NCBI GenBank assembly: GCA_964187785.1
Contig: OZ076409.1
Coordinates: 69,752,001 to 69,816,000 of the forward strand
Reading direction: 5' to 3'
From: Amphiscolops sp. MND2022
Lineage: Eukaryota
DNA length: 64,000 nt
Position numbers and translations under genes: made by a program. The notes below the pieces were generated by a model, which saw only the letters and a program-made list of their open reading frames with translations, was not told the DNA's origin and did no database searches. Positions within the stretch are counted from its first letter, which is position 1, and every line of letters starts with the position of its first letter. Below, one piece after another: positions 4,862-44,659 of the stretch.

Positions 4862-5066
4862 AACAAGCCAAGAACGGCCAAAGTCGGCGCTATATCTAAG
4901 GCTCAATATTGTGAAAGGGGACTCTTCGGGCTGTTTTAAACTCCAACTGGTTGCAAAATATGAAAAAATTGAAGGGGGACACTTTGGCGACATTAAATAA
5001 TTTCCAAAATTTTTTTTTTGAATTCAACTTTTTGAACAGTGTCACATTGCCGAAAAATGTAAAATG
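4862..5066 (-). mobile_element. HINE family 1, 3' part (rest at 7587-7979), inserted in the Copia RNase H
   Basis: Begins AACAAGCCAAGAACGGCCAAAGTCGGCGC, the reverse complement of the family 3' end; matches the intact copy at 22705-23268. Confidence 0.75.
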
Positions 5067-7590
5067 CATCATTTATAGCTCTTTGGATTTGGGAACTAAC
5101 GCTACTCATCATCTCATCCATTTCTCTAGATATTCTGGAGTTTAACTCGCTCGACAACTTGTTAATCTCGGCTTGAGAGTTCATGTCTGTTGAATTTTGG
5201 CCATAATCGGCACTTGACCTGACATTAGAATTTCTATGATCCGAATAAGGGTTTTCCTCCCTTTCATCTAAATTGTTACTCACAATACTCTCATGCCTCC
5301 TAATTGAAGTGCTATCGAGACTTCCGTCTCTTTCAGCTTCATTGAAATGATTTTCTCCCAACATGATATCGAAGTTTTCGATATCTGAGAGGATTTCTAA
5401 ACCTCTTGATGTCCTCGCTTTCTTCTGTTTTCTGGTGGTAGGCATTGAAACAGTTCCGAATCAACAATGAATCAATCAATACGGAAAATAACAGCGGTGC
5501 CGTTTGTAGATCAATCTTTACTAGGAGAAAATAATATGAATTGTGTCCCACTCATGCTAAACACCGGTATTTATACCCCTGAGTGGATGACAACCACATT
5601 TTTCACATATTTCTAGTTAAGATTAATATTGTAATGTATATGATCTTTACATATCTTGGGAATTTATAAGATAATATTTCGGAAGGTATTTAAGTCATCA
5701 AACACCTCTAGTTACATACCTCACATATTAGTGAGTAGCAACAAAGTACATATTTCAACAAAGTCCCAATTGGGAAAACTCCCGACATATACGTGTTTCC
5801 CAGAAACGCAAAATCAAACGATTAACATTTTGGTAGGTGTACATAGTAGTACTTCAAACAACATTTTCATGAAAATATTATCATTCTATCGTCAACAAAT
5901 GATATTGCCCGTTGATGGAATGCAAAACTCGCATCACTGGTATGTTATGCTAGCACGTGCCACCACGCGACTATTAATCAACATTGAGGGAAGCAAATCA
6001 AACAATGCATGCACAGTCTATTTGAGATATCATCACACTATTGGAACAGAGTATTTTCTAAAAGTGGCCGAAACCGGCTACTATCCGTTTGGTCTTTACT
6101 AACATGAAATAATAGTTCGGTGAATGGCCCTATTCGGCCGAATAATAAAATAGGGCATTAAACTGCAAAAATGAGTATCCAATTAACATGATAGACACAA
6201 TTATCCGATTACCAATTAAGTACATGTATGCTAGACAGTTTATTACTCACAAGTGCAAGACGGCCGGAACCGGCCATTTAACCAAAGTACCAAACAATAA
6301 AGGCAGAATTACGTCATGTGGCCTAATCCGGCCAAATAGTGAGTACAATAAAAGCACCACCAAATGAGCGAACGTGATTGGTTAGCGTAACGAGCTCAAG
6401 TGACTTTTCCGAATTTGGAGTTACCTTCACTTGAACTCGTTTCCTTTACGCTGCAAAGCTGTTTAATTGTTTCAATTGCTTACAATGTTATACTGCACCT
6501 CTATTCTGATACATACCAGTCCAATCTTTCGATCCAGTCCATAAGCTTTGTAATTTTAAAAGACTAATGCGTATACATATACAAATGGGAAAATTTAACA
6601 ACATCAATAAATGCAACATATTTAAAGCAACAAAGTAGTGTAAAATTTTGTTTAATTGTTCTTTTGGCTAATAAATGGGGAGTGTGCCGGACGCTGTCTC
6701 CTGTCCTTGTGCAGTCGTCGTGATCTTAGTGCCGTCACAGGCGGCAGCCTGCGACACTGCGGGTGCTAAGAAAAATGCACTACCGCGTTAAGGCCGTTTG
6801 AATAGGCTTCTCTTCGTAGGGCGGTGACATAAGCGGATTCACTCCTGGGCGTAGATCTTTCCATGTACCAGTTGATTTTCTCTTGTTTTATCTCATCAAT
6901 TGATTTGCCACAAACCATACAACTGTGGCATCTCTAACGGCTAAGGTCCGCATACGGCAACACATTTTGTATATGATAATAGACGTGGTAGTTGTCACTT
7001 ACTGCTTGCGGCATAGGAGTGTCCAGTGATGGTCCCCTTTCATGATCGAGGGGAGAAATAGGCGTTTCTAGGACTGGTAAGATGGTGTTGCATAGTTCGA
7101 TTCTTGTCTTCTGCTTTTTAGAGGGAGCTAGACACTTTTCCATATCAAAGTATTTGAAGCCCAGCTTGGGGGTAGAAGGCGGAACCGGCTGCGCGTTGCT
7201 ACGTCCCGCTTCCAATTCGTCATCTAGCCCTTCAGTTGTCATTATTCGTCCCGCGATGAGAATTGGGCGTGACTTAACCTCCCGTTCGATTTTGCTGATC
7301 GGCGCTTCCGTGTCTGTGGACCAGTCCGAATCCCAATCGCTGGATACTTCGTCCTCACTGTCACTGGAAATGTAAATCACGGAATCCGCTGATTCCTCAG
7401 AACTTTGTTCTTCGAAGTCGAAAAGTTTTTTCGACAAGTTAAATCTTTGCATTATTCTTTTCTTTGCAGTTTTGATTGATGCAAGAGGCAACTGGTTTAG
7501 TTAGAACTTCGAAGTAGAATGAAATCACTAAATTCTAGAATTTAGCCGAGTCGGGTCTTTTCCGGGCAGTTCGTTTTGGCGGTTGAAACT
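5067..7590 (-). repeat. Templated copy of Gypsy A segment 8152-10662 (partial LTR, gag N-terminus and accessory ORF)
   Basis: Near-identical to 8152-10662; contains ORFs 4993-5445 (MPTTRK...) and 6934-7491 (MPLASIK..., premature stop). Confidence 0.9.
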
Positions 7591-7979
7591 TTTTGAACAG
7601 TGTCACATTGCCGAAAAATGTAAAATGGGACCCTTTGAGCACTTCTGACATCCATTGTGTTGCAAAATATCGAAACAAAAGACAGGGAGACCTTTTGGTG
7701 CAATCCAAAATGTTTCAAAAAAATTCGCATAGTGCCGAAAAAAAGTGGGGGGGGGGTTTAGCTAAAGGAGGGGATCCTTAGTGTGTTTTCGATGTTCTGC
7801 ACGTGTGTTTGTTTTGTTTTTCCTTTTCGTTTTGGATGCGCTTCTGAGGTTCGAGTGATTTGAACCTCCGCTGTAGTTCAAGTTGTTGAACAAATGAACA
7901 AAAAAGTGAGCCTTACCCGAGTAAAAAAATACCACTGTGAGAGTCCGGCAAACTTTCTACGAAAATGCGCCGACTAAAA
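7587..7979 (-). mobile_element. HINE family 1, 5' part
   Basis: Matches 22866-23268; ends in the hairpin arm AAAATGCGCCGACTAAAA. Confidence 0.75.
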
Positions 7980-7986
7980 GCACAGT

Positions 7987-9827
7987 TGTAATGAACATGT
8001 CGGTTAGTGAACTCGCCATTGAGGTGGCCATCACTCTGTTCATTTCTAAGATTAGTTTTTGCGAACAGAAGCTTCCCATCCCCATCTAGTCTCATGTCCC
8101 GATCCGGCTATGATGGCACTCTGGATTTGGGGTAGAACTTGATTGTTTATGGCATCATTTATAGCTCTTTGGATTTGGGAACTAACGCTACTCATCATCT
8201 CATCCATTTCTTTAGATATTCTGGAATTTAACTCGCTCGACAACTTGTTAATCTCGGCTTGAGAGTTCATGTCTGTTGAATTTTGGCCATAATCGGCACT
8301 TGACCTGACATTAGAATTTCTATGATCCGAATAAGGGTTTTCCTCCCTTTCATCTAAACCGTTACTTACAATACTCTCATGCCTCCTAATTGAAGTGCTA
8401 TCGAGACTTCCGTCTCTTTCAGCTTCATTGAAATGATTTTCTCCCAACATGATATCGAAATTTTTGATATCTGAGAGTATTTCTAAACCTCTTGATGTCC
8501 TCGCTTTCTTCTGTTTTCTGGTGGTAGGCATTGAAACAGTTCGGAATCAACAATGAATCAATCAATACGGAAAATAACAGCGATGCCGTTTGTAGATCAA
8601 TCTTCACTAGGAGAAAATAATATGAATTGTGTCCCACTCACGCTAAACACCGGTATTTATACCCCTGAGTGGATGACAACCACATTTTTCACATATTTCT
8701 AGTTAAGATTAATATTGTAATGCACATGATCTTTACATACCTTGGGAATTTATAAGATAATATTTCGAAAGGTATTTAAGTCATCAAACACCTCTAGTTA
8801 CATACCTCACATATTAGTGAGTAGCAACAAAGTACATATTTCAACAAAGTCCCAATTGGGAAAACTCCTGACATATAGGTGTTTCCAAGAAACGCAAAAT
8901 CAAACGATTAACATTTCGGTAGGTGTACATAGTAGTACTTCAAACAACATTTTCATGAAAATATTATCATTCTATCGTCAACAAATATTATTGCCCGTTG
9001 ATGGAATGCAAAACTCGCATCACTGGTATGTTATGCTAGCACGTGCCACCACGCGACTATTAATCAACATTGAGGGAAGCAAATCAAACAATGCATGCAC
9101 TGACTATTTAAGATATCATCACACTATTGGAACAGAGTATTTTCTAAAAGTGGCCGAAACCGGCTACTATCCGTTTGGTCTTTACTAACATGAAATAATA
9201 GTTCGGTGAATGGCCCTATTCGGCCGAATAATAAAATAGGGCATGAAACTGCAAAAATGAGTATCCAATTAACATGAAAGACACAATTATCCGATTACCA
9301 ATTAAGTACATGTATGCTAGACAGTTTATCACTCACAAGTGCAAGACGGCCGGAACCGGCCATTTAACCAAAGTACCAAACAATAAAGGCAGAATTACGT
9401 CATGTGGCCTAATCCGGCCAAATAGTGAGTACAATAATAGCACCACCAAATGAGCGAACGTGATTGGTTAGCGTAACGAGCTCAAGGGACTTTTCCGAAT
9501 TTGGAGTTACGTTCATTTTAACTCGTTTCCTTTACGCTGCAAAGCTGTTTAATTGTTTCAATTGCTTACATTGTTATACTGCACCTCTATTCTGATACAT
9601 ACCAGTCCAATCTTTCGATTGTAATTTTAAAAGACTAATGCGTATACATATACAAATGGGAAAATTTAACAACATCAATAAATGCAACATATTTAAAGCA
9701 ACAAAGTAGTGTAAAATTTTGTTTAATTGTTCTTTTGGCTAATAAATGGGGAGTGTGCCGGACGCTGTCTCCTGTCCTTGTGCAGTCGTGGTGATCTTAG
9801 TGCCGTCACAGGCAGCAGCCTGCGACA
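7987..9827 (-). repeat. Gypsy A 3' LTR (~1.84 kb)
   Basis: Direct repeat of 23276-25224; on the minus strand starts TGTCGCAGG and ends GTTCATTACA. Confidence 0.8.
8052..8531 (-). CDS. Gag N-terminal (coiled-coil-like) segment encoded inside the 3' LTR
   Basis: MPTTRKQKKAR...EINKLSSELNSRISKEMDEMM; three copies in the window; lies downstream of the LTR TATA box. Confidence 0.65.
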   Translation of the reverse strand: MPTTRKQKKARTSRGLEILSDIKNFDIMLGENHFNEAERDGSLDSTSIRRHESIVSNGLDEREENPYSDHRNSNVRSSADYGQNSTDMNSQAEINKLSSELNSRISKEMDEMMSSVSSQIQRAINDAINNQVLPQIQSAIIAGSGHETRWGWEASVRKN

Positions 9828-10563
9828 CTGCGGGTGCTAAGAAAAGTGCACTACCCGCGTTAAGGCCGTTTAAATAGGCTTCTCTTCGTAGGGCGGTGAC
9901 ATAAGCGGATTTACTCCTGGGCGTAGATCTTTCCATGTACCAGTTGATTTTCTCTTGTTTTATCTCATCAATTGATTTGCCACAAACCTTACAACTGTGG
10001 CATCTCTGACGGCTAAGGTCCGCATACGGCAACACCTTTTGTATATGATAAGAGACGTGGTAGTTGTCACTTACTACTTGCGGCATAGGAGTGTCCAGTG
10101 ATGGTCCCCTTTCATGATCGGGGGGAGAAATAGGCGTTTCTAGGACTGGTAAGATGGTGTTGCATAGTTCGATTCTTGTCTTCTGCTTTTTAGAGGGAGC
10201 TAGACACTTTTCCTTATCAAAGTATTTGAAGCCCAGCTTGGGGGTAGAAGGCGGAACCGGCTGCGCGTTGCTAGGTCCCGCTTCCAATTCGTCATCTAGC
10301 CCTTCAGTTGTCATTATTCGTCCCGCGATGGGAATTGGGCGTGACTTAACCTCCCGTTTGATTTTGCTGATCAGCGCTTCCGTGTCTGTGGACCAGTCCG
10401 AATCCCAATCGCTGGATACTTTGTCCTCACTGTCACTGGAAATGTAAATCACGGAATCCGCTGATTCCTCAGAACTTTGTTCTTCGAAGTCGAAAAGTTT
10501 TTTCGACAAGTTAAATCTTTGCATTATTATTTTCTTTGCAGTTTTGATTGATGCAAGAGGCAA
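9739..10563 (-). CDS. 274-aa accessory ORF of Gypsy A (acidic N-terminus, CxxCxxC motif), 3' end overlapping the LTR
   Basis: Intact ATG-to-stop ORF with SDSEDKVSSDWDSDWSTD and CHSCKVCGK; the last ~29 codons lie inside the LTR; second copy at 6934-7491. Confidence 0.65.
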   Translation of the reverse strand: MPLASIKTAKKIIMQRFNLSKKLFDFEEQSSEESADSVIYISSDSEDKVSSDWDSDWSTDTEALISKIKREVKSRPIPIAGRIMTTEGLDDELEAGPSNAQPVPPSTPKLGFKYFDKEKCLAPSKKQKTRIELCNTILPVLETPISPPDHERGPSLDTPMPQVVSDNYHVSYHIQKVLPYADLSRQRCHSCKVCGKSIDEIKQEKINWYMERSTPRSKSAYVTALRREAYLNGLNAGSALFLAPAVSQAAACDGTKITTTAQGQETASGTLPIY

Positions 10564-11588
10564 CTGGTTTAGTTAGAACTTCGAAGTAGAATGAAATCAC
10601 TAAATTCTAGGATTTAGCCGAGTCGGGTCTTTTCCCGGCAGTTCGTTTTAACGGTTGAAACTTCGGTAAAACATCCTAATCCGACATAAACATTCCTAAA
10701 TGGAGTTTCATAATTGGTCGGCAGTCTTTGATAGCTCGAAGTTTACCCCTCATCAATATCATCACTAGAAGAGGTGTGAATGACGCTCGAATTATTGATA
10801 TCAACTACACCAGTCTCAAGTGGGTAATTAACGGGTTGCTTGGAGGCGAATAATGGCACGCGTCACCAAAATTTCTCAGAATGGCTTGGGCCAATCAGGA
10901 ACACCCACCACTAAAATGAAAAATAAATTATTAAAATGGCAAAAGTAATGACTGAAAATAATCTAAAATGGCGGAAATTCTAACTAAGGGTAACTAGGAT
11001 AACAGAACAAAGCGGTAAAATAGGGTGAGGCAAAGGCCGTAACCGGCCACTAGCTGGTTGAGCTACAAGTAATGTAAGAATCTTTGTACATTTCGCTGGC
11101 AGACTCCATGTACAATTTTAAATATGTAAATAACTATATAATATTAGTCTGGTAATTCCTTCAGCCACGAACTCCAACTTTCACTCTTTTGATTGTTACA
11201 AATTTCAATTGTCTTTTTTGTCTATACTAGTTATATTTGTAACCTTCCACTTCTTTGTCGCGGATTACACCTTGCATCTTTGTTCAATTCCAATCTCCCC
11301 TTTTGGTTCTTCCCGTGGAGTTATCCAGCTCATTTCCCTTTTCCTGCTGAGGTCGGTCCGTTCTTTCGACTATGTCATCCGATCAAGGACTGCTTCCTGG
11401 AGGACGGGATCTTCACAGTGGAATGACTTCGAACGAAGGTTGGTTTGGATTTCATATTTTGAACTAATTTAACTTGATCAAGGCTAAACTTTGTTCACTA
11501 GATGCTTCCTGTTTCCATCAAAGAACACGTGATAACACGTTTTCTCAAAGTTTTCAAAACACTTCCGGAAGTTTTCTAACGCGGTAAA

Positions 11589-14500
11589 ATGGATTTCTTT
11601 CAAGGAAGCTCACCGCCAAATTTCATCTCTTTCTGTTTAGACAACCAGAATGTCAATGAGACTCAAACATCCTCCAACCCGGTTCTAGAAATTCCAACTG
11701 AGCCACTCCAGACCCAGGCCTCAACAGGTAGTGCGCTACCTGATACCCCTACTGAGCCGGATTCTGGACGGCCCAACGTTGCAGCATTTGAGGCCTCCCC
11801 CGGAAGCATTGATAGTCAAACGGACGTCAACGTCTATGCTGAGTTAATGGTGCGTCGGCTTGAATCTTCACAAGCTTCAGAGCTGAGAGCCGCCCCTGTT
11901 CAGGTTTCTTCAGGGCTCGATGGGACTTCGGAGCCAAGAGAACAAAGGGAATGGACTCCTCTTCCATCTCCAAACTTGGCCAATACCCCTTCCAACCCAG
12001 TGAGGGTATATCCATAGATAGTAGTCTGACCCAGTTAGAGCCCACTCTCAGAGTTGCTACTACATCGAGGACGCAACTCCCCGAATTACTCTCGACCCAT
12101 GACTTGTCCCGAGAACACTCTGATCCTTCCAACTTGCAGTCTAACGAGGATAATGATTCTTCCATCTACGAAGTTCCTGCCTTTCCAAGTGGAGAAGCCA
12201 GAGTGCGATTCTTAACTGATTTCAGTGAAGCAGAGAAAACTGCTGAAGAAGCTAGCCACGTCGATCTCACCGTTCTTTATGGGAATAATCCAGTCACATC
12301 CGAGTCAGGGACCGAGGGCGGTGATGAGATGGACTCCATTTCACAAGAGGTACGACTGAACAGGCCTAGTACCTCATCTGTCAGAAGGCTTGATGACGGG
12401 CTCCCTGAGCTCTCTGGCTGGAGTCGGGCATTGCTCAAGACTTACTTTGATGAAGTCAAATCCTTCAATTTGACACAGGGGCATCCCACTGTGGTTTTCT
12501 CCGAATCGCAAATGTATCACTTGCTGAGGATCCTAGCGGATAAAACTTTGAGCATGTCATACACCACTATGGAACGCATGGTTCTGGACGCTATTAAAGG
12601 CACGCCCACAGCTGTTCCCTCGAGGACGGACCAACTCCTGTTGAAGACTCGGGCCTCCACTCCCTTCCGGGTTCCTGACAGTGATTCAAGCGATGCTGAA
12701 TCAGCTATAGTCGATGTCCGGCGAATTGAAACATCAGACTCTGGGGAATCTTGTACCCTAGGAGACATATCCATACCCGAGGAGAGTGACAGTTCAGGGG
12801 AGATGGATCTCACTTCTCAGTCTTTCAAAAAATCAAGTTAGCGTATTTCCACACACCAAGTCCAAGAGATAGCGACAACTTCTTCGCTGGGAAAATGGCC
12901 TGAACAGGATTGTACCAGCAGCGATGATGCGACCCTGTCTGAAGTGAGAAGACAAACACTTGGAGAGAAGGAACAAACGACGGGTAAGGACAAGTTGCCA
13001 AAGAAGAGCAAGAGGCAGCCACACCGAGGGGTCCCTATGCGGGAGGAATTCTTCGCCAAGATTTGGTGGACCCGTTCCTTTATATCCGGTCCCGCTGACC
13101 CACTCCATAACCCTTACATGGTGTGGTGTCACATGTGCAAAAAAAAACATTTCCATTCGCAGTAAGGGAACTATGGAAATCCTCCGCCACCATAGGACCG
13201 AAAGGCACCTTTGAGGAAATCAACGGTGCCAGTACGAGCACCTGAGGAGCGTTGATCCCGTCACAAACAAGCTGCAGCATCGGGTGCGTGGCCGGAATGG
13301 GAAGCTCTTGACTACGATTGAGCTGGCGCGTGAGCTGCTTAAGTTCTTACACGCGGAACTCGTTGACACTGGTGAGCGTTTTCCCTTTTACCACGACTTT
13401 ATTGAAGGCCGGACCACAGCTTTAGTAACACCCGAATCCAGGGCTAATACTCAATTGCGAATTGTCGGCGATTTTATCCAACGCCAAGGAGACTTTTCCG
13501 TCCTTCGAAGTTTATGGTCCAGCATCAGCTCTCTCGCAGATCATCACGCCAGTCTCTGTGACTTTGATTGGGGAGATGAGAGAATGACGGTAATCATTAA
13601 TTTGTAGTTGGTACTTCTTTTCCCAAATAAGTCCTCTGCTCAATGCATTTGTTTAGTCTTTAGGTTATTTTCCAGCATTTCTTCAATTGTGCTTTATCTG
13701 AGATCGCGGAGCACGTTGCCACCGAACCGAACCTTGCCATTGAGTTCGAAACCAAGGGCACTAAACGGTTCATGTCCGTGCGATTCTGGAAGGGAGAGGA
13801 TTTGTGCAGAGTGCTTGTTTGCCGGAATGGGCTACCGTCCTCGGAGTTGACTGGAGAGCTAGGATCATTGGCCCGATTGCTCTCTGTGGTTTCGACCAAG
13901 ACTGACATCGTTGCTTGTTCTGGGTGCCCAGTCGACCTTCTCCGCACAATTGATCAGTCTCCCTTCTTCACTGGAGGTGTTCAGAGTTGCTTCAGATTCG
14001 AACAAGTTGACGTGCCTAGGCTCATGCACAAGCTGAACTACAGTGTTTTCGTACACATCGATTTCTTCTCAGTATTGAGAGGGCTTTTGATATCTCTGGG
14101 TAGATCTCTCACGACGGACTGGATTCAACGCAGCCCTGAGCTGACAAGGGTGAGTACCTTTTGGACATTTTGAACTTACCGGAGATCTCTAAGTCTGTGG
14201 GGTAGGAAGTTCCATATCCACTCAATCAGTTCAAGTAGTGACGTATGTAAATTTTCTTCAGGCCCTTACCATGAGCAAACTGGATCTACCAATACTGCCA
14301 AGAGTTGGTTGACGAATGGGATTCCGTCACAAAATACCTTACTGAGCACTGCCCTCGCCAACAAGGACAAGGAGTTAGGACGCGGGTAATTAGAGTGATT
14401 TTTCCACTAGAGGGTCGGTTTAGACCTGGCAGTGTAATTAAGTAGACCTGTCCGGCCAGATCTCTTCATGTCCCCTGATTTTGTTTTTCCATGTTTAGGT

Positions 14501-15939
14501 GCAGAGTTTAGAGTGGGCTCTCATTTGCGACGAATTCTTCGCCGTGAAACTGGAATTCTTCTACCGACTTGTCAGCGACTGTTAGTATATTTTGTTGCTT
14601 CAGAAGATCTCTCAGTTCCTATAAGCATTGGGTCACTTTAGGGCGCTCGGTAGGCATTTTCTCAGTATTTTGCATTGTTCCCAACCTGATTGTTCTCCTT
14701 ATTGTCCAATGTGGTTCGGATTGTAATGTGGGCTTCTTGTTCCTCTCGGTACTTCAATCATTTCAGTTTCTCTGTTTGCAGTCAATTCCAGTTTCTCAAT
14801 CAACACCAAGCAACGACGTGATTCCTCTTTCTTCTTGTGTGGTGAAGTTTCGCGCTGTATCCACAAATTGTGTTCCAGATGTTATACTTCAGACACCTTT
14901 CCGCTTGAAAATTCCTGGTTCCTCCTGTTGGCATTCCGAACCAGTGATGGGACCTTCTTCTCTGGGGAGGAGTTCTTGATCCGTCTAAACATGAGCAACA
15001 AAGTTACAACGGCGAGCAAACGAAAAACGGAAGGGGTCCATTCACGCAAGCGGATAGAGAGGGCGATTCTTCAGAAGACGACTGATACCATCAAGGCAGA
15101 GTTTGTGCAGGACGGGTTGCAGTACCTACAGTGCTTGATTGGGGAGGTTCTGCGACAAGCTGGCTTGAGCTCCAACATACTTAAGGGGTTGGCTGCATTT
15201 GACCCCTTCATCATGTTTAGACGGCCAATTGAAGTTGCCCTTCGGCACTTTGACCTCTTGTATGACACATTCCTGCGTCGATCCTTGGTAACTGCAGCGA
15301 ATCAGGTTGCTTGCCGAGACGAGTATGTTAGCCTCTTGGATTATCTTCGGGCCAATTATTCTCCTGATTTTGTTGTTACTGATTTAGCGCGTTACCTGAT
15401 GGATTTTATGATCAATTTGGAAATTCTGCAGTCTCGACGGCTTCTTATCTATCTTTTCAAACTCAGCTGTTGGTGCATCACAGCCGTCAGTCCTCAGTAT
15501 CCCTCCGTATCAGCGGGTCGTTTTGACACTTCTGGGTTTTGTGACAGGTTTACCGATGTAGTCCTGCCCTCCCAAAGTTACCTTTCCGCCGTGCCAGGGG
15601 CTGTACCCTATTGTAGCTCCGATGCTCAGCTTGCAAACTTCTCTCTTCTTACTGCCTCTTTTGGGCAGACTGCCTTCTCACTAGATCTCCCTGGGACAGT
15701 GTTCACCAAGTTGGACGGGCGAAGATCTATAAATCACTGGTGTCTTCGTACCAGAAATTCTCTCTGGGCCTAAAAGGGTCTCTGTGCGGGAGGAAGCCGG
15801 AGAGACTATCACCATTGCTGATCAGTCTGCCTTAAAGGTCCCCAGCAGCACTAAACGTCGAAGAAGGGAGCGGACTGCCTCTCGATCTGCCACCTAATCA
15901 GTAGCTGGGGAATCCGAGCAAAGCACATCTAACCTCTAA
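11589..15939 (+). pseudogene. Spliced antisense accessory gene: S/P/E-rich N-terminus, BED-like zinc finger, possibly hAT-transposase-derived body
   Basis: WCHMCKK-NISIRSKGTMEILRHHRTERH (CxxC...HxxxxxH) across a frameshift; GT-AG introns 13590-13663 (phase 0, joins ORFs 13284 and 13772 in frame), 14150-14261 and 14386-14498; long ORF 14835-15773; several frameshifts. Confidence 0.65.
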
Positions 15940-16050
15940 TTGTCCATATGTGCATGTGTATCCAAAACTGTAAACTTTGTTAATTTCTTTTGTTGTTTTG
16001 TAACCTTCGATCCCTGTATTTATTTCTGGAAGGGATTCCTTGTTGCCATG

Positions 16051-16062
16051 CCCCTTTTCTCT
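16051..16062 (-). promoter_or_regulatory. Polypurine tract just downstream of Gypsy A pol
   Basis: Minus strand AGAGAAAAGGGG followed by CA-TGGCAAC, ~100 bp after the pol end. Confidence 0.6.
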
Positions 16063-16149
16063 AAAGTACGCTCTTGGGGCTAAAAAAGAAAAAATGAAAG
16101 GGAAAAAGAATAGAGAACAGCGTTCGTTCTTGGACGTAATTTAATCTTT

Positions 16150-19100
16150 TTCTGGTATCTAAGGTCTTCTGAATAGTTTGGGTTAGGGTGAGGCCTGAGG
16201 TTATATTTCCCTCCTCTAGGGCTCAGACTTTCATTTCTTGCATCATTTTCCGATATTTCGGGCACGATAATATCATCCCCCTTTTTGGAGAACTTTGTTC
16301 GTCGTTTTCATTGACTGGGTTTGTTTCTGGAAAATTTTCATCGCTTTTCAGTTTTTCATCCGTTTTCAGCAAGGATTTTTCTTGTTTTTGAGGAACCGGC
16401 CGGATTCGGCCAATCAGATTTTTCATTTCTAGTCCCTTCACTAGTTTCATTTCTTTCAGTGACGTCATCATTTAATCTTTCTTTCCGGCTCTGCGCCGCA
16501 TGGTCAGTGTAATTTGTTTCGTCTCTCGTGATTATGTAATCCGCTTCATTCTCGTCTACGTCACTTTGAATCGGTTCCGCCGCGTTCGGTTGTTCGCCAT
16601 TCGGCAAGCTAGTCGGAATAGGATCATGTCCTCGTATAACATGCTGCTCGCCAAAGTCCGTTTCCCACGCTATGATATATAAGTCATCTTGCGGAATAAC
16701 AATTTTTTCATCAGGCTGTAGCCGCTGTTCTCGGAAATTGTCCTCAAGCGGTTGATTGGGGACGAACTTTTTAAGGCGAATCCGATGCAATATTTGAGTC
16801 TTGTTTGTTATAATTCGTCGTACAATATAATTTTCATTAGGTAAAACTTTTTGGACTATAAATGATCCGACCCAACGATAATCACGGAATGGAATTTTTG
16901 ATCCTTGATGATCTGCTTTTGGCTGTAAGACAAAGCAGTAATCATTCTCCTTTAATGGAGCGGCTTTTGCCTTGCGGTCATAATCTTCTTTGTACTTGAT
17001 AAACGACTGCATAATATTTTGCTTTGTTTTGTCAATCAAGATTTTTGTCCGGTTTCGTATTTCTTCAGCAAATTCAGTTGTTGGATTGATCTGTTCGTTT
17101 GGATTATTCCCAAGTTTGTGATCGAGAATACTATATGGGATTCTTCCATGAAATACTCTTGTCGGCTCACAACCGATGCTGGCATGGTAGCTAGTGTTAT
17201 GGTTTAGTACTGCTAGTGGCAAGTATCTGTGCCATTGTCGGCGGAATTCTCCACATGCCATTTTGAGGTTTGTTTTCAATGAGGCATGGGTCCGCTCTAA
17301 TTCCCCAATTGTTTGCGGGTGTTTTGTTGTTGCACATTTGAGTGTTATGCCCAAAATTTGCGTAATCTCCGCAATAATTGTGGACGTGTATGCAGTACTT
17401 TTGTCAGTAATAAGTGTTGTCGGTAAAAATGCATGCTTGGTCATAATGTCAATGAGCGCTTTTGCTACATTGATCGCTGACGCGTCCGTGAGAGGATAGG
17501 CGAACAGGTATCTGAAAAATACATCAATTGCTGTTAGGACGTTTTCATACCCTCCACTTGGGGGAAGATTCGGCAATAGGTCGATCTGCATGGCGTCCTC
17601 AGGTCCGAGGTCCCATTCGGGCAAGTTGAGCAGTTCGGGTGTAATTGTTGTGTTAGGGATCTCTTGTCTCTGGCACATTGTTCGCACCCGTCTACCCACT
17701 TTTTGACGTGTTTAGCCATGCTAGGGTAGTATTACCTCTGTCGGATATCCTGCAACATTTTTGAGATACCAGGATGTTTATGCGCTGTCCCATGGAGAGA
17801 CTGAAGCAATTCCTGGAGTAAGTGCTGCGGGAGCAGAATTTGGTGGTATTTAACGTTCCCTGTTTCGTCAAAGTATTGCCTCGTCAGGATGTCGTCCTTA
17901 AGTACGATTCGTTCCAGGTTGTTTGCATAATGTCTGTATCGAGCATCCCGTTGCAGTAGGTTCTCTGAATACTCTTCATGAAGGAGTTTTGCCTTCAATT
18001 GTTGTAGTACTGCATCTTTGGATTGTTCGATAATGATCTGGTTCGTTTTCCTTAATAGGACTTGTATATCAGGATGTTGTTTGACTAGGTTTGTTGACAG
18101 AGATTGTATTGAAACAGTGGGCTCATCAATAGCTGGATTTTTCCTGATTGCCTTTTTTCTTGCCCAATATTGTTCTTCTGTCTCATCGTCATCATTAGTG
18201 TAGACGATTTGTTCTTCTTGTGGCACTCCTGCTGATTGGACGTTTCTTTCAATTGGTAGGGTTTGAACATCTTCGCGGATTTTCATTACTAATTTGTCCT
18301 TCGGGTCTGCTTCCAAACGGGACAAATAGTCGGCAGCTGTATTTTGTGCTCCTGGGATGTGCGCTATGACAAAATTGAACTGAATCACATAATCACACGC
18401 ATTCCACAGGGCTGGGGGTTTTATTTTCGTTTGAAAAAATCGCATGACAGCTTTGTTGTCTGTAAGGATTATGACCGGTTTAGGCGCACCCCAGAAGATA
18501 TGTCCGAATTCTTTGAATGCGAATTAAATTGCAAGAAATTCCTTGGCATAAATAGACATCTTGATTTGAGCTGGGGTGAAGGTTTTTGAGCCATAAGCGA
18601 CCGGTGCATACGATTTTCTGAGTGACGTAAGTTTCTGGTTCGGGTCGTCTTCAATTAGGACTGCATATCCAGCTGCACCAAAACTGGCGTCAGTCATTAG
18701 TGCAATTTGTTTGTTTGGAATGGGATGTTGTAGGGCCAAATGGCAACACTTGTCGAGTGCTTTTCTGATTTCCTCGAATTGTTAATTCTTTCGATACCAG
18801 GACCTTTTCGTCACTTTTCAGCATCTTGTAGAATGGAGCAAGGCGTTCTGAGAGTCTTGGGACATAATTTCTGTAGTATTTCAAGAATCCCAAATAGCGT
18901 TGTAAAGCCTTTTTCGACTTTGGGAAATTGGTTTTTTCCAGAAAGTTTTGTACGTTCTGTTTCTGCGGTTTGACGCCTTGTGGGGAAATTGTTCGTCCGA
19001 GGAAATCAATTCCTTTTGCACCGAAGTGACATTTGTGCATTGTCAACTTCAGGCCTGCTTCCTGAATGCATTTGAACGTTGCTCTCAGGTTAGTTATGAG

Positions 19101-21340
19101 GTGGTCAGCATCATTGGCTGCGATGCCGATATCGTCCACATACTGGGCACATTGATCCGCTTTGATGACTTTGTCAAGGTATTCCCTCATAAAGCTCGAG
19201 AATGCGGAGAAAGACCGGCTAAGGGCTTTTGCCAAACGTCTGCATGCAAATGTGCGGCTGGCGAAATTAAAGGCCAACTTTTCAATCGATCGTTGGTCAG
19301 CCATGAAAAGGCAGTGGTATGCCTGCGGGCAGTCTAATTTACAGAATACTTTTTTGCCTGCCAAGTGTTGGGCGGCGTCGACTAAAGTACTGACAGGGTG
19401 ATTATTGTTTATGTAATCATCCGATATAAGGTTGTTAATTTTCCTCAAGTCAACCAGGAGTCTGAGTTTTCCATTCAGTTTCTTTTGTGCGAATATTGGA
19501 CTCGCATATTTCGAGAATGGTAGGGTGGTGATTATGCCATATTTGTGTAACATGGCAAATTCAACTAGGATGTCCTCCTTCAGGTTGATAGGGGCTGGGA
19601 AGCTCTGGCTATAGGCTGGGGAATCGTCCTTAGGTGTCAATTTCACTTTGAATTCCTCATTCTTGCCTATATCAAATCTGTGTCGTGCAAATATATCATG
19701 GAATTCCACTAGTAATTCTTCGATCTTCCCCTTTTCTTCGGGAGTAAGAGTAGAATCTTTCCAATTGAAGTTTTCTAGGATTTTTGCACGAGATTTTTCA
19801 TATTTGGTGGAGTCGAGTGTTTCCAGGTCCTGTAAGGCCTGTAATTCACGGAGAATTCTTTTCTGGATGGGCGTGTGTTCCTCAGGATTTCCAGGGTTTT
19901 CTGGAGTTGGGAACCAGTAATTTTCAGAATTTTGAGGGTTTTTATTCGTTTTGATGAGGCTGCTGACATAATGGGCTGCCTGCTCTTGGTCAGTTTGCAA
20001 AAGGTGCCAGGTTGATGCCGGTTTGACGTATTTCATTTGTTCCGGCGTCATGACAGAAAAATTGGCAATATGGATTCCTTTTTTAGGTTTGTAAGGGTGG
20101 TCCGTGAAATTGTTCACTGGTATCAGTATACTGCCGTCATTCAGAGTGACTAAGGCTGGGCAAAATGTGATGTCTCCTTCTTCATGTAAAAGGTCACTTG
20201 GTTGTAAAATGCCAGTTACAGCATTCTCAGGGTAGAGTAAGGAGTTGGTCCTAATTAGGCCTCTGTCATTTGGCGGAATGGTTAACTCAGTAGGGTTGAG
20301 GATTGGTTCTAGCACATTTGAATATTTATGATCAGCTGTTTTGAGCTGCATTGAAAAGAACGGGAAATTCAGTAATCTTTGCCTCATGTCCAGCACTGTA
20401 TGATTTCTCTGAAGGAACATTAGTCCAATAATCGGTCCTGTCAAATGTTCCATCACTATGAAAATTTCATGGAACTCAATGTCACCAACTTCGAATTTGA
20501 GCTCTATGGTACTCTTGGGAGTCTCCGGTTGCCCATTAGCGACCATGATTTGGAAGTTCGGAGGCCGTCCTTCCCTGATGACAGATTGTGGAGATAGAAG
20601 GCGAATTTTCCGGAGGTCCATTTCAGGAATTCCACTGGACAGTGCCCCAGTGTCAATGAGTCCATCAATGGTCAATTCCCCAAAGTCCATTGGGAAATAA
20701 AGCATGCGTTTCTTGCATTTGAGATTATTGTTGATTGACAGGGGTATGCAGTCTGATTCACCATCTTTGGTAATGAGTACGTTTTGGAACTGTTTCTCGT
20801 CTAATAGTGATTTTGGTATGGATTCGGCAGTATTTTCACAATTCGCGGTCCCCAAGGGGTTTAGGAACACTGGGTGGTTTGTACCATTGTTCATTTGCCA
20901 ATTTCCAATTAGTGCTCGTGTTTTATTGTTGTGGGTAATTGGAGGGTTCTCGCGGACTGTATTGTTGTAGTGTTCAATGTCGTCTAGAACATACTGGAAT
21001 TGCAATAAATCTTGATCATAAATCTCAGTGTCCCAAGAGGGATCTCTACCATAGTCTGGGTCGATGTATGTTGGATTGTAATCATCGATCAGGGGAATGG
21101 ACCTGAACCGGGTAGTGAAGGTTGTTGTATAGTCAGGGTCCCAAATAGGAATTGGTTTTTGGAATAAATGGGTATGTTATAGGTAATAGTGATAGCTTTG
21201 TCCATCTGTTGCTGCCAGACAACAGAGGGATAACCCATCAACTGCTGGGTGTATTGGTGAAAGATTTTTGTTGGAGGATCCGACCTGATGTATTGGAGGA
21301 CGGATATTAGTTCGTTATGTTGGAGTCGTGGCGAAGTTAG
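16150..21340 (-). pseudogene. pol: Gypsy A pol (protease, dUTPase-like insert, RT, RNase H, integrase), frameshifted
   Basis: LIDTGA protease; YVDD RT; TDAS..GAVL..VAYGSK RNase H; HKHPG..CEQC zinc finger; IDLL..DVFFRYLFAYPL..TDKST..HPQTIGELERT integrase; C-terminal KYNLRP. Confidence 0.93.
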
Positions 21341-21346
21341 TTTTTT
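21340..21346 (-). promoter_or_regulatory. Putative -1 ribosomal frameshift slippery heptamer A AAA AAC at the gag/pol junction
   Basis: Minus strand ...GAGTAAAAAAAC-TAA at the end of gag; the overlapping frame reads KKTNFATTPT. Confidence 0.6.
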
Positions 21347-22463
21347 TACTCAACATTAGGAGATGAGAATTGAGAGCTTGATGATGTCGGCTTGTTCTGT
21401 GGTTTCTGAGCCTTTGAATTGGGCTTATTGTCATTGGAGTCCTCGGATCTGGTGCGTTTAGGTTCAAGATGCGCACCAGCGCCTTGCCAACATCTTTCCT
21501 CCGGGTGATTCTTTTTGCCACAAGTGCCGCACTCTGGATATGTTCTCTTCTGAGTCAATTTGCCTTGTTGGGCATCTTTCTCTTTTTTCTTTTTCAACTT
21601 CTCGCAGTCTTTGACCATATGGCCCTTCTCTTTGCAATAGTTGCAAGTTATGTCCGACATTTGCCCTGTGGAAAGGGGAGTTTTGGGTTTGGAGGATGAG
21701 GTGGTCATTGTTGCCATGGGTAGGTCATCTGACTCCTCAAGGGCATTAAGCTCTAGTTCTCTTTCCAAATGAGCAACTATTTCGTCGTAAGAGCCGTTTT
21801 CTAGTCCTGTCATATTGACTGATCTTTTGAGTTTTGGTGGCAGTTTTGCATATAGCAAACTGTCAATCATTTTCTGCGCATGGTCGCCAAATGCCTTTTC
21901 TGCACCTTGATTTAATTCTTCAAGGAAATCGGGCAGCTTCATCGTATTGGGATCGAAGACCAGACGGTGCCATTTATGTTTGGCAGTCGCCTGCGACTCA
22001 GGTTTGACGTATTATCGTCGGAAGATGACTAGTACGTCTTCAAGAGTTTGTCGATTTGTCGAATTGATGTTTCTAAATGTCTCGAGGGCATTTTTCCTCA
22101 GTAGTGAATGGAAATGGTTAATTTTCATCTGTTCGGTCATTTCTGGCTGCATCTTGATCATAGTGTGAAAAAGATCTTCGAACAGCTCAAATTTCTCACT
22201 TTTGCCGTTGAAGGTCATGGTATTGGAATTGACCGGGCGTATGGTGAGTTGTTGTGCTGTTGGTCTATTCTGCATAGTAGTCAAGACGTCGGCCAATCTG
22301 GTATTGGGATCAGGATCTGCAGCTGTAGCGATTCGCTCATGCGCTGGGATCATCGTGTCAAGGTTGATGTCCTCATAGGACTGATTGAGATGACTTCTTG
22401 ATGGGATACGTCCTGTGAGAAACTCAGGAACTTGATTTGGAGATTCGTTGTCTGCTGTCACCA
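21346..22463 (-). pseudogene. gag: Gypsy A gag, internal part (capsid-like region, two zinc knuckles)
   Basis: FNGKSEKFELFEDLF..INHFHSLLRKNAL; CNYCKEKGHMVKDC and CGTCGKKNHPEERC; one frameshift near 22012. Confidence 0.88.
22452..22463 (-). promoter_or_regulatory. Primer-binding site of Gypsy A (TGGTGACAGCAG)
   Basis: Directly follows GTTCATGACA, the same 10-mer that ends the LTR at 23276; starts with TGG. Cognate tRNA not assigned. Confidence 0.7.
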
Positions 22464-22500
22464 TGTCATGAACGTTCAATTCAGTGTAATGATTGTTTGA

Positions 22501-23275
22501 ATGCATTGAATGAATCCGGACTACTGGGTCAATACACTTAGAATTCTTCTGCGTAGCATTCAGTTCAAAACGAACAAGATTGATCCTTGTTTGTTCTTGA
22601 GAGAACGAAATGGTCATATAGACTTCGTAGCAAACGAAATATGAATAGATACGGAAAAGGTAACTACGATACATGTCGACAATGAGACTTGTACCGCAAT
22701 AACCAACAAGCCAAGAACGGCCAAAGTCGGCGCTATATCTAATGCTCAATATTGTGAAAGGGGGACTCTTCGGGCTGTTTGAATCTCCAACTGGTTGCAA
22801 ATCATGAAAAAATTGAAGGGGGACACTTTGGCGACGTTAAATAATTTCCAAAATTTTTTTTGATTCAACTTTTTGAACAGTGTCACATTGCCGAAAAATG
22901 TAAAATGGGACCCTTTGAGCACTTCTGACATCCATTGTGTTGCAAAATATCGAAACAAAAGACAGGGAGACCTTTTGGTGCAATCCAAAATGTTTCAAAA
23001 AAAATTCGCATAGTGCCGAAAAAAAGCGGGGGGGGGGGGGGTGGCTTTAGCTAAAGGAGGGGATCCTTAGTGTGTTTTCGATGTTCTGCACGTGTGTTTG
23101 TTTTGTTTTTCCTTTTCGTTTTGGTTGCGCTTCTGAGGTTCCAGTGGTTTGAACCTCCGCTGTAGTTCAAGTTGTTGAACAAATGAACCAAAAAGTTCGC
23201 CTTACGCGAGTAAAACAATACCACTGTGAGAGTCCGGCAAACTTTCTACTAAAATGCGCCGACTAAAAGCACAGT
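22501..23275. repeat. Duplicate of the Gypsy A 3' flank (Copia RT/RH fragment 22501-22704 plus intact HINE 22705-23268)
   Basis: Matches 4658-5066 plus 7628-7986. Confidence 0.9.
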
Positions 23276-23288
23276 TGTCATGAACATG

Positions 23289-23861
23289 TCAGTTAGTGAA
23301 CTCGCCATTGAGGTGGCTATCACTCTGTTCATTTCTAAGATTAGTTTTTGCGTTGAAGTTGCGTAGGACTTCGGAGTTAATTTCCGGTTTCTCAACAGAA
23401 GCTTCCCATCCCCTTCTAGTCTCACGTCCCGATCCGGCTATGATGGCATTCTGGATTTGGGGTAGAACCTGATTGTTTATGGCATCATTTATAGCTCTAT
23501 GGATTTGGGAACTAACGCTACTCATCATCTCATCCATTTCTCTAGATATTCTGGAGTTTAACTCGCTCGACAACTTGTTAATCTCAGCTTGAGAGTTCAT
23601 GTCTATTGAATTTTGGCCATAATCGGCACTTGACCTGACATTAGAATTTCTATGATCCGAATAAGGGTTTTCCTCCCTTTCATCTAAATTGTTACTCACA
23701 ATACTCTCATGCCTCCTAATTGAAGTGCTATCGAGAGTTCCGTCTCTTTCAGTTTCATTGAAATGATTTTCTCCCAACATGATATCAAGATTTTCCATAT
23801 CTGAGAGGATTTCTAAACCTCTTGATTTCATCGCTTTCTCCTGTTTTCTAGTGGTAGGCAT
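23289..23861 (-). CDS. Gag N-terminal segment inside the 5'/solo LTR
   Basis: 190-aa ORF MPTTRKQEKAMK... ending 13 nt from the LTR terminus; the stop is probably a CGA>TGA change, since the copy near 8000 has CGA. Confidence 0.65.
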   Translation of the reverse strand: MPTTRKQEKAMKSRGLEILSDMENLDIMLGENHFNETERDGTLDSTSIRRHESIVSNNLDEREENPYSDHRNSNVRSSADYGQNSIDMNSQAEINKLSSELNSRISREMDEMMSSVSSQIHRAINDAINNQVLPQIQNAIIAGSGRETRRGWEASVEKPEINSEVLRNFNAKTNLRNEQSDSHLNGEFTN

Positions 23862-23958
23862 TGAAAAAGTTCCGAATCACCAATGAATTATTCAATACGG
23901 AAAATAACAGCGGTGCTGTTTGTAGATCAATCTTTACGAAGAGAAATTAATATGAATT

Positions 23959-24008
23959 GTGTCCCACTCAGGCTAAACACCGGTATTTATACCCCTGAGT
24001 GGATGACA
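23959..24008 (-). promoter_or_regulatory. TATA box within an inverted repeat (LTR promoter candidate)
   Basis: GTGTC-CCACTCAGG...CCTGAGTGG-ATGACAC arms enclosing TATAAATA (minus strand), ~125 bp upstream of the gag ATG; conserved at ~5544-5590 and ~8630-8677. Confidence 0.55.
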
Positions 24009-25224
24009 CCCTTATATTTCACATATTTCTAGTTAAGATTTATATTGTAATGCACATGATCTTTACATATCTTGGGAATTTATATGATAATGTTTCGAAA
24101 GGCATTCAAGTCATCAAACACCTCTAGTTACATACCTCACGTATTAGTGAGTAGCATCAAAGTACATATTTCAACAAAGTCCCAATTGGGAAATTCCTGA
24201 CATATACATGTTTCCCAGAAACGCAACATCAAACGATTAACATTTTGGTAGGTGTACATAGCGGTACTTCAAACAACATATTCATGAAAATATTATCATT
24301 CTATCGTCAACAAATTTTATTGCCCTTTGATGGAATGCAAAACTCGCATCACTGGTATGTTATGCTAGCACGTGCCACGACGCGACTACAAATCAACATT
24401 GAGGGAAGCAAATCAAACAATGCATGCACAGTCTATTTAAGATATCATCACACTATTGGAACAGAGTATTTTCTAAAAGTGGCCGAAACCGGCTACTATC
24501 CGTTTGGTCTTTACTAACAGGAAATAATAGTACGGTGAATGGCCCTATTCGGCCGAATATTAAAATGGGGCATGAAACTGCAAAAATGAGTATCCAATTA
24601 ACATGAAAGACACAATTATCCGATAACCAATTAAGTACATGTATGCTAGACAGTTTATCACTCACAAGTGCAAGACGGCCGGAACCGGCCATTTAACCAA
24701 AGTACCAAACAATAAAGGCAGAATTACGTCATGTGGCCTAATCCGGCCAATTAGTGAGTACGATAATAGCACCACCAAATGAGCGAACGTGATTGGTTAG
24801 CGTAACGAGCTCAACTGATGTTTCCGAATTTGGAGTTACGTTCACTGGAACTCGTTTCCGTTACGCTGCATAGCTGTTTTAATTGTTTCAATTGCTTACA
24901 TTGTTATACTGCACCTATGTATACTGTTATATGTATATTATAATGTATATTATTATAGTACCTTTGTAGACTAGTTATACTGTCTATTCTGATACATACC
25001 AGTCCAATCTTTCGATTGTAATTTTAACAGACTAATGCGTATACATATACAAATGGGAAAATTTAAAAACATCAATAAATGCAACATATTTAAAGCAACA
25101 AAGTAGTGTAAAACTTTGTTTAATTGTTCTTTTGGCTAATAAATGGGGAGTGTGCCGGACGCTGTCTCCTGTCCTTGTGCAGTCGTCGTGATCTTAGTGC
25201 CGTCACAGGCGGCAGCCTGCGACA

Positions 25225-25601
25225 ACAGTGAATTCTGAAAGTGAAGCATTTTGCAATCAAGTTAAGTTTAAACAAGAACAGATATGCTACACTTGCACGG
25301 TGCGTTCTGGTAACCAGTAAAATGAATGCTGACTTGCTAACTGGACAGTTGAGAAAGGTGGAAAGTGGTAAGGTGGAGATGTTCAGCATTAGCTTCTCTG
25401 AAAATAAAACTTGTAGCAAGCTCCGGAAAGGGAGACTTTTGAGAAATATAGAAGACATTGCATGTTTCGAAGCTAGGAACAAGATTCGTAAGATGTATGA
25501 ACAATTTCGTCAGTCAAAAGAACTCATTCATTTTTGTATTTCAACGGGATATAATTATTAACTTCTGATGTATGTTTAGTAAATCACGTTTAAAGGGAGG
25601 A
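25225..25601 (+). pseudogene. Ty1/Copia RNase H C-terminus and PPT (continuation of 3650-4861)
   Basis: KVKHFAIKL..VTSKMNADLLTGQL resembles the Copia KHIDI..V.T..Q.AD.LTK motif; purine run AAAGGGAGGA at ~25592-25601. Confidence 0.75.
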
Positions 25602-43735: not shown

Positions 43736-44205
43736 CTCCCCCTCTTTGGGTTTTTAGGGGAACCAGTCTCGGGTCCTCAAGATCTGGTAGCAAAAAGGCC
43801 ATGATTAAGTTCATTTCCAATTTTGCTTGGAGACAGGAAAAATGTTGAAATACAATTTATAAACACTCTTTCATCAGCTATTTTTAATCAGTGCGTTTTG
43901 GGAAAGAAATGCCCGAATATTAAAATTGACAATTTTTCCTCCAGACGACTGAACGCACACTGCATGGTCCACTTTTCCCCAATTTTTCGAAAACGTCCCG
44001 AGCGACTCTCTTTTGATATTTATAAATTTTTTCCATTTTTTCAAAAAGAAAAAAAACATGAGACCAAATTATCCCCTTTTTCAGTTTGGACGAAACTTTT
44101 ACCTTCTAAATGCTCCCCTTTCAAGTAACTTCAAGCTCAATGATATTTATCTGAGCTCTCTCAAAAACAAAACTCCGAAAATTTTGCGCTTTTTAAGTAA
44201 ATTTT

Positions 44206-44645: not shown

Positions 44646-44659
44646 CAAAACGTTCTACT

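What the first reader, a model, noticed from the sequence alone, without database searches (positions are those of the whole stretch)
7987..16062. PPT lies 6.2 kb from the TSD-defined LTR edge: possible ~8 kb LTR or non-canonical plus-strand priming
Seen: the TSD (ACAGT) fixes the U3 edge at TGTCGCAGG (25224; equivalent 9827), but the sequence before 9827 is pyrimidine-rich coding DNA (CTTTTCTTAGCACCCGCAG), not a PPT. A good PPT followed by CA-TGGCA (one mismatch from TGTCA, the inverse of the TGACA end) lies at 16062-16044, just after pol. Established: the PPT normally abuts the 3' LTR. Inference: either the true LTR is ~8 kb, contains both accessory genes and integrase used a cryptic internal TGTC end here, or the family primes plus-strand synthesis unconventionally.
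Basis: partly seen in the sequence, partly recalled or inferred. Interest (0 to 1): 0.75.

Follow-up and report, generated by a model that had tools for sequence, protein, structure and literature searches.

The report
Retrotransposons thriving without a polypurine tract
A large, recently copied group of jumping genes has a mixed, C-rich sequence where the purine-rich signal that normally starts the second DNA strand should sit, yet its copies have exact, normal ends, so its copying enzyme likely picks that start point by position rather than by purine content.

Summary
The 8-kb LTR is refuted. The missing PPT is real and family-wide. In 27 of 43 relatives examined at both ends, 1.7-1.95-kb LTRs start at the 9827 equivalent (TGTCGCAGG) with matching 5-bp TSDs; three further-checked pairs have 100%-identical LTRs. 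None has a purine tract there; most read ACCCGC(A/T)G|TG. The genome holds 1,221 such junctions, against 192 with eight purines. The purine-type copies are sister lineages of the same architecture, reading AGGGGGAG|TG at the homologous codons of an ORF that crosses the LTR edge. Three more distant families carry other mixed sequences there. Silent sites just before the edge are conserved (C at -5 in 15 of 16 subfamilies) while upstream silent sites are scrambled. Best reading (0.6, inferred): RNase H leaves a non-purine primer at the ancestral site. HIV with a mutated G-tract loses such priming and stops integrating; these elements evidently do not. The scan earlier noted PPT-less gypsy clades in plant and fungal genomes, and this clade's antisense hAT-like gene.

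The parts
7982..7986 (+). 5-bp target-site duplication ACAGT
7987..9827 (-). 3' LTR (1,841 bp), TGTCG...TTACA; holds the last codons of ORF-S, a TATA-like box near 8655 and the start of gag (8052-8546)
   Evidence: same edges in TSD-bounded copies
9804..9827 (-). Predicted 9-10 bp hairpin that starts at the first LTR base
9828..9835 (-). PPT position occupied by ACCCGCAG (4 of 8 purines); inferred plus-strand primer end
9839..9846 (-). T-rich tract (Phe/Leu codons) upstream of the inferred primer; possible U-box
9739..10572 (-). ORF-S (stop to stop, 277 aa): sense accessory ORF with an acidic N-terminus and an H...CxxCG motif; crosses the PPT/U3 edge in frame; function not established
   Evidence: no Pfam match, no usable Atlas hit, low-confidence model
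11580..15773 (+). Degraded copy of an antisense gene with GT-AG-bounded interruptions (likely spliced), a BED-like finger and a weak hAT-transposase-like fold
   Evidence: Hermes Z 5.8, rmsd 11.5, weak; earlier findings e1-8580077, e1-8616659
16044..16062 (-).
16276..16286 (-). Purine run in the integrase tail (K/R-G-D codons); interrupted in several young copies
16356..21176 (-). pol (PR-RT-RH-IN order), broken in this copy
21346..22463 (-). Internal part of gag (zinc knuckles), broken in this copy
22452..22463 (-). PBS directly after ...CATGACA; 11 of 12 match here, 12 of 12 in relatives, to the 3' end of host tRNA-Leu (CAG/AAG)
22464..22500 (-). Remnant of a 5' LTR end of a different subtype
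22501..23275 (+). Repeat of the left flank (4658-5066 and 7587-7986), ending in ACAGT; marks a rearrangement
23276..25224 (-). Right LTR (1,949 bp) with ACAGT on both sides (solo-LTR-like); 92-96% identical to the left LTR
25225..25229 (+). Target-site duplication ACAGT
5066..7591 (-). Local 97% duplicate of 8152-10663; runs through the junction (6756) without a break

Best explanation
This is a Ty3/gypsy LTR retrotransposon clade whose 3' LTR has no polypurine tract, and whose RNase H likely leaves a mixed-sequence RNA primer ending ...CCCGC(A/T)G at the same site where sister lineages keep AGGGGGAG. Shown: the LTR edge is fixed to the nucleotide across lineages (second base of a Val/Leu codon of ORF-S); ends and TSDs are normal; the bases just before the edge are under nucleotide-level constraint; purine content there runs from 8 of 8 down to 3 of 8 between lineages. 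Inferred: RT primes plus-strand DNA from this fragment and removes it cleanly. The cut is probably set by features that survive purine loss: G at -4 (the only base before the edge that is invariant in all 16 aligned copies, though also a first codon position), S|U at the scissile bond, an upstream U- or A-rich tract, and possibly a U3 hairpin that frees the RNA 3' of the cut. Overlap with ORF-S would have pushed the site away from purines, and RNase H changes may have accommodated this.
For: Edge and TSDs: 27 of 43 pairs of this clade with TSDs at 1 mismatch or fewer, none with more than 5 of 8 purines before the 3' LTR. LTR pairs are 100% identical in L079/80, L085/86 and L199/200. Genome counts are 1,221 CCNGCWG-type versus 192 eight-purine junctions. 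The homologous PPT-like 8-mer lies at the same codons in sister lineages. Silent-site test on 16 subfamily representatives: 13 upstream fourfold sites have a top base at 31-60%, but -5 is C in 15 of 16 and -2 is only A or T. The clade is one side of a branch at 100/99 (89/90, which included a long-branch copy). Three distant families have other mixed sites at the same place. RNase H catalytic residues are intact. The G-K-N-N loop of purine lineages reads G-A-Q-N in this clade and G-A-M-N or G-S-M-N in two mixed far families. Literature passages: PPT and RT co-evolve (PMC3185511); -4G and an upstream U-tract matter in HIV (PMC1802577); T-box importance and weak PPT conservation in fission-yeast elements (bioRxiv 2022.12.06.519325).
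Against: There is no direct evidence of the primer: no cDNA or RNA data. In HIV the G-tract is the main determinant, and mixed G-tract mutants fail to prime and stop integrating (PMC1802577; PMC13332604 passages), so a C-rich 8-mer should be a poor primer unless this RT differs. The -7 and -6 bases and -4G are also constrained by codons. The hairpin has only 2 double changes, both from one family; its structure was derived from these same sequences; it is absent in the most distant family. The RNase H correlation rests on two or three branches. A search for insertions that kept primer bases before a 5' LTR found 0, so the primer's 5' end could not be mapped.
Confidence: 0.6

Rival explanations
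1. The junction is a second (3') binding site for the primer tRNA-Leu. RNA -5 to +13 would pair with the tRNA D arm and anticodon stem, as the 3' PBS of Ty3 and Drosophila gypsy does, and this pairing would mark or protect the plus-strand start, or supply a tRNA fragment ending CGCAG.
For: 16 of 18 positions can pair in CGCAG copies, and the C at -5 and the change from GGGAG to CGCAG extend the duplex. The junction is the best tRNA-pairing site among 4,644 windows in L079 and in the top 0.2% in five CGCAG copies in a first, less even scan. A 3' PBS has precedent in gypsy (PMC1635307 passages).
Against: Shuffled tRNAs pair as well in 62, 289, 245, 641 and 430 of 1,000 trials for five copies, and the site ranks only 7th in L199. 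Far families use the same PBS but do not pair in this register. There is no CCA before the edge. T at -2 (15 of the first 100 listed) would mismatch a tRNA-fragment primer. In gypsy the 3' PBS was dispensable for cDNA synthesis (PMC1635307).
Confidence: 0.12
2. An accessory protein (ORF-S product, Gag NC, or the antisense hAT-like protein) binds the junction or hairpin and shields the primer from RNase H, or itself primes.
For: Every family sampled carries the antisense gene; ORF-S homology crosses the edge in all but the most distant one. ORF-S has conserved His and Cys residues.
Against: Purine-type lineages carry the same proteins, so their presence does not track PPT loss. No fold or function was found for ORF-S.
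Confidence: 0.1
3. Plus strand starts upstream (16062, the integrase-tail run at 16286, or scattered sites), giving a long U3 end that integrase or another nuclease trims at an internal TGTCG att site. This is the general form of the reader's 8-kb LTR.
For: A purine run followed by TG is common in the integrase tail of this clade. The first ~16 LTR bases are strongly conserved (partly by my selection).
Against: No copy starting at the 16048 equivalent among 41 matches. The 16062 run occurs in 4 of 46 copies. The integrase-tail run is interrupted in young copies such as L199 and L215. No 5' extensions were found (its pattern would catch about a quarter of them). It does not explain constraint at -5 and -2. 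Internal cleavage by a retroelement integrase is not the normal reaction (own knowledge). Earlier notes call the hAT-like protein catalytically dead.
Confidence: 0.08
4. The edge is a splice acceptor (pyrimidines, then CAG|). A spliced RNA would bring a PPT next to U3 and provide plus-strand strong-stop DNA to a co-packaged unspliced genome.
For: TTTTCYTAG...CAG|TG looks like an acceptor in most copies.
Against: 15 of the first 100 listed junctions end in CTG, including the 100%-LTR copy L199. Far families end in CC or AC. Of 30 purine-adjacent loci, 28 are sister lineages with their own ORF-S and none shows pol sequence next to the LTR.
Confidence: 0.04

Closest known systems
Canonical PPT priming in Ty3, HIV-1 and fission-yeast Tf1-type elements (PMC3185511 passages; PMC1802577 abstract and discussion part 1; bioRxiv 2022.12.06.519325 passages)
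   Same: tRNA PBS, TG...CA LTRs, 5-bp TSD, primer site abutting U3, T-rich tract upstream, G at -4; sister lineages have an 8-purine tract.
   Different: Known primers are all-purine or carry a single pyrimidine (HIV-2, MPMV per PMC3185511). Here half or more of the last eight bases are pyrimidines in copies with recent-insertion signatures.
HIV-1 3'PPT G-tract mutants (PMC13332604 passages)
   Same: Mixed sequence replaces the G-tract, and the site lies in a reading frame (nef in HIV, ORF-S here).
   Different: HIV mutants lose 3' priming and persist as 1-LTR circles without integration. These elements show exact two-LTR insertions with TSDs and outnumber the purine-type junctions about 6 to 1.
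[quoted passage not shown]
   Same: Several kb between pol and the 3' LTR, carrying an antisense transposase-related ORF.
   Different: No TRP28 match; intron-like interruptions; an extra sense ORF crosses the LTR edge. The passages seen report no PPT loss.
Bipartite PBS of Ty3 and Drosophila gypsy (PMC1635307 passages)
   Same: Possible tRNA pairing near the RNA 3' end.
   Different: Not significant against shuffled tRNA here, and the site overlaps the PPT/U3 edge.

Membership tests
Ty3/gypsy (Metaviridae) LTR retrotransposon | gag then pol in PR-RT-RH-IN order, RT related to Ty3 | tested here: met
   Pfam; Ty3 RT 4ol8 at E 5e-25; domain order
Ty3/gypsy (Metaviridae) LTR retrotransposon | Direct LTRs TG...CA with a 4-6 bp TSD | tested here: met
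Ty3/gypsy (Metaviridae) LTR retrotransposon | tRNA-complementary PBS after the 5' LTR | tested here: met
   12-nt match to host tRNA-Leu 3' end plus CCA
Canonical PPT-primed LTR elements | Purine tract abutting the 3' LTR | tested here: not met
   0 of 27 TSD-bounded copies of this clade; met in sister lineages (10 of 11 TSD-bounded copies with 8 of 8 purines, one with 6 of 8)
Canonical PPT-primed LTR elements | Plus strand starts from an RNase H-generated RNA primer at the U3 edge | not testable with these tools
   needs cDNA intermediates or RT assays; RNase H catalytic residues intact
Elements with very long (about 8 kb) LTRs | 5' repeat starting at the 16048 equivalent and holding the accessory genes | tested here: not met
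   5' LTRs 1.4-2.0 kb starting at the 9827 equivalent; 0 of 41 matches start at 16048
Bipartite-PBS elements (Ty3, gypsy) | Second tRNA-binding site near the RNA 3' end | tested here: inconclusive
   top-ranked in one copy, p about 0.06 or worse against shuffled tRNA
Retand/Tat | Antisense TRP28 (PF04195) ORF | tested here: not met
   no Pfam match for the antisense ORFs at E 0.5
hAT transposase (antisense gene) | Hermes-like fold with DDE triad | tested here: inconclusive
   Hermes 8edg Z 5.8, rmsd 11.5, 196 aligned, for the last exon only; the triad was not tested here

The most novel reading that the evidence does not exclude
A whole superfamily of Ty3/gypsy elements has uncoupled plus-strand priming from purine content. 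The start is marked by structure (U3 hairpin and/or the primer tRNA bridging the edge), which let an overlapping gene rewrite the PPT at least twice, with matching changes in the RNase H loop. This would be a second, structure-guided way to start the retroelement second strand.
Probability: 0.3. Interest if true: 0.85.

Novelty: new variant of a known kind. Interest (0 to 1): 0.7.

Why it matters
How RT picks the plus-strand primer is still described as largely unresolved (PMC3185511 abstract), and in HIV loss of the G-tract abolishes normal ends. This genome offers a natural series at one homologous site (AGGGGGAG, GCCGGGGAC, ATGCAGGAC, ATGCTGGCC, ACCCGCAG) with closely related RTs. The window's clade and its purine-type sisters are about 80-90% identical in RT-RNase H. 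This makes the determinants of primer choice directly testable in vitro. It also means that LTR finders which require a PPT could miss or mis-bound over a thousand junctions in this genome (inference).

Tried and rejected
Rejected readings. (1) 8-kb LTR: rejected. (2) A possible LTR start near 11300, suggested by where distant alignments ended: rejected by paired LTRs. (3) Spliced copies bringing a PPT to the edge: purine-adjacent loci are sister lineages. (4) A second copy of the primer motif (central PPT or hepadnavirus-like translocation): the match at the integrase HPQ codons also occurs in purine lineages and does not co-vary. (5) A target-site asymmetry as a sign of odd U3 ends: A at TSD position 4 in 34 of 65 versus T at position 2 in 17 of 65 (p 0.004; one of the 65 was an internal junction), but purine lineages show it too, so it is not specific.

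Searches without result. No RNA holder was listed for L079. Accessory proteins: no Pfam match, no usable ESM Atlas hit, unnamed homologues only, and an ORF-S model at pLDDT 49 (119) that was not used for a fold search. Larger samples of the distant families, and genome-wide counts of -5 and -2 variants, were not obtained. P0184 and P0180 had no close match in this genome (66-67%). The host was not identified; an acoel guess from recall (search listing only) was not tested.

Literature. Searches (open-access PMC and bioRxiv only) surfaced no description of a PPT-less Ty3/gypsy family; subscription papers and supplements were not seen. PMC2864245 (passages) had nothing on PPT loss.
Full report
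The window holds a degraded Ty3/gypsy element on the minus strand: gag at 21346-22463 and pol at 16356-21176 with protease, RT and integrase domains (Ty3 RT at E 5e-25). A 6.3-kb region follows, carrying an antisense gene and a sense ORF (ORF-S), and then an LTR at 9827-7987. This copy is rearranged. The right LTR has ACAGT on both sides, about 775 bp of left flank is repeated between it and gag, only a 37-bp remnant of another LTR subtype precedes the PBS, and 8152-10663 is duplicated at 5066-7591. The locus alone therefore cannot settle the question, and I turned to other copies in the 1.07-Gb genome (host not identified by my calls).

The LTR is not 8 kb. All 38 other top matches to the 9827 region (40 scored of 1,234 candidates) run through it. 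Of 19 pairs of stretches, 13 showed a 5' LTR beginning at the 9827 equivalent; the other six had no intact 5' LTR in range. Across 43 pairs of this clade, 27 gave TSDs with at most one mismatch by script. Of the rest, 5 were incomplete, 5 lacked the 3' end and 6 mismatched; two of those six match when read by eye. Measured 5' LTRs were 1.4-2.0 kb. Three pairs have 100%-identical LTRs, so PPT-less copies inserted recently. None of 41 matches to 15900-16200 starts at the 16048 equivalent. The PBS is normal: TGGTGACAGGAG abuts the LTR and matches the 3' end of host tRNA-Leu.

The missing PPT is a clade trait. All 27 TSD-bounded copies have ACCCGC(A/T)G or a close variant before the 3' LTR. Exact counts give 3,601 LTR starts for a 22-mer, 1,221 CCNGCWG junctions and 192 junctions with eight purines (these two share the same 16-nt LTR anchor). 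Of 30 purine-adjacent loci, 28 proved to be sister lineages with the same architecture and 2 were chance flanks. In those lineages ORF-S reads P-G-G-V (CCA GGG GGA G|TG) where this clade reads A/T-P-A-V (RCA CCC GCA G|TG). A family reached by protein search rather than by my LTR pattern also has CCAGGGGGAG|TG, with TSDs in 3 of 3 copies. RT trees put the 19 C-rich copies on one side of a 100/99 branch, with purine lineages between them and more distant families (89/90, which included a long-branch copy; the root is by midpoint only). The distant families (pol about 50-60% identical or less) are also mixed. One reads AAAAATGCTGGCC|TG (17 internal junctions among 30 loci; TSDs match in 3 of 4 pairs; 163 LTR starts). 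In single copies of two more families the sites read AAAAATGCAGGAC|TG and AAAGCCGGGGAC|TG. The edge is thus fixed while purine content is labile, with at least two changes on the tree.

The site still matters at the nucleotide level. Among 16 subfamily representatives (21 representatives from 47 open-frame junctions, clustered at 85%), 13 fourfold-degenerate sites from -160 to -28 have a top base at 31-60%. By contrast -5 is C in 15 of 16, -2 is A or T in 16 of 16 and -17 is T in 12 of 16. The five purine representatives fix A, G and A at -8, -5 and -2. In the first 100 junctions listed genome-wide, 89 have C at -5. Across all lineages G at -4 and TGTC at +1 to +4 are invariant. A hairpin starting at +1 is predicted in the main lineages; 91.9% of cells pair and two pairs show double changes, both from one far family, while the most distant family does not form it. 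RNase H catalytic residues are intact. The loop HIPGKNN of purine lineages reads HIPGAQN in this clade, HVAGAMN or HVAGSMN in two mixed far families, and HVPGRMN in the most purine-rich far family. This is suggestive, but it rests on few independent changes.

Mechanism. The simplest reading is that RNase H cuts at the ancestral position and RT extends a mixed-sequence primer (0.6). The position, precision and local constraint are shown; the priming itself is inferred. Against it, HIV G-tract mutants fail to prime and replicate as 1-LTR circles (PMC13332604, passages), and the G-tract is the main determinant in vitro (PMC1802577, abstract and discussion part 1). PMC3185511 (passages) allows only single pyrimidines but notes PPT-RT co-evolution. 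Rivals were tested. Pairing of the primer tRNA across the edge, a lead prompted by earlier scan notes on plant elements, is top-ranked in one copy but matched by 62 to 641 of 1,000 shuffled tRNAs. Upstream priming with trimming finds no extended insertions and no conserved upstream tract. A splice acceptor is contradicted by CTG, CC and AC ends. A duplicated primer motif does not co-vary. No RNA data were available, so splicing and expression were not examined.

Comparison. The element meets the Ty3/gypsy tests but not the PPT test. The long pol-LTR region with an antisense gene resembles plant Retand elements (PMC11963269, passages) without the TRP28 domain. Earlier notes call the antisense protein a disarmed hAT transposase; my model gave only a weak Hermes match (Z 5.8, rmsd 11.5). 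Ten searches of the open-access library found no account of a PPT-less Ty3/gypsy family. Earlier scan notes report such clades in plant and fungal genomes (unchecked). Verdict: a real, family-wide departure from a textbook requirement and a new variant of a known kind, with a mechanism that is likely but unproven; interest 0.7.

Noticed in passing
window 22452-22470 and 8052-8546; L080:3718-5475: gag starts inside the 5' LTR and reads in frame through the LTR end and the PBS, so both primer sites of this superfamily lie in coding sequence.
   Followed up: partly
65 flanks of 5' or solo LTRs: The target site looks asymmetric: A at TSD position 4 in 34 of 65 versus T at position 2 in 17 of 65 (p 0.004); seen in purine lineages too.
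   Followed up: partly
window 10600-11560: The region between ORF-S and the antisense gene has repeated AAAATGGC(GG) motifs (YY1-like, from recall) and CCAAT boxes; a possible internal bidirectional promoter.
   Followed up: no
orthologues of window 16020-16070: AATAAA in the sense strand just after pol in 36 of 46 copies; may give a short gag-pol mRNA beside the full-length RNA.
   Followed up: partly
L235, L236, L238, L115, L197: Tandem elements sharing an LTR (3' LTR followed by PBS and/or gag), and tandem arrays of junction fragments such as C1:47790865-47797067.
   Followed up: partly
L109, L077, L040: Identity to the window switches abruptly (for example 91% to 74% near 12100 in L109), pointing to recombination between subfamilies.
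   Followed up: no
L239, L240, L243; G000:C8 from 35.58 Mb: Of 833 matches to the tRNA-Leu 3' pattern, most listed ones form a tandem array of about 296-bp period on C8 in which ARAGORN called almost no tRNA; some dispersed matches are 3' tRNA pieces with CCA next to other sequence.
   Followed up: partly
window 525-906, 4858-5064, 7587-7986, 22705-23275, 28539-29077, 57797-57950: A family of short MITE-like repeats; the element's left edge abuts one, and the 5066-7591 duplicate sits inside it between two 40-bp direct repeats.
   Followed up: partly
window 31292-36477 (+), 38617-45541, 58527-62196: Other long ORFs (one of 1,406 aa), a 1.5-kb 98% repeat (29938-31439 and 36612-38111) and a 15-bp tandem array at 44455-44659; probably further mobile elements.
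   Followed up: no
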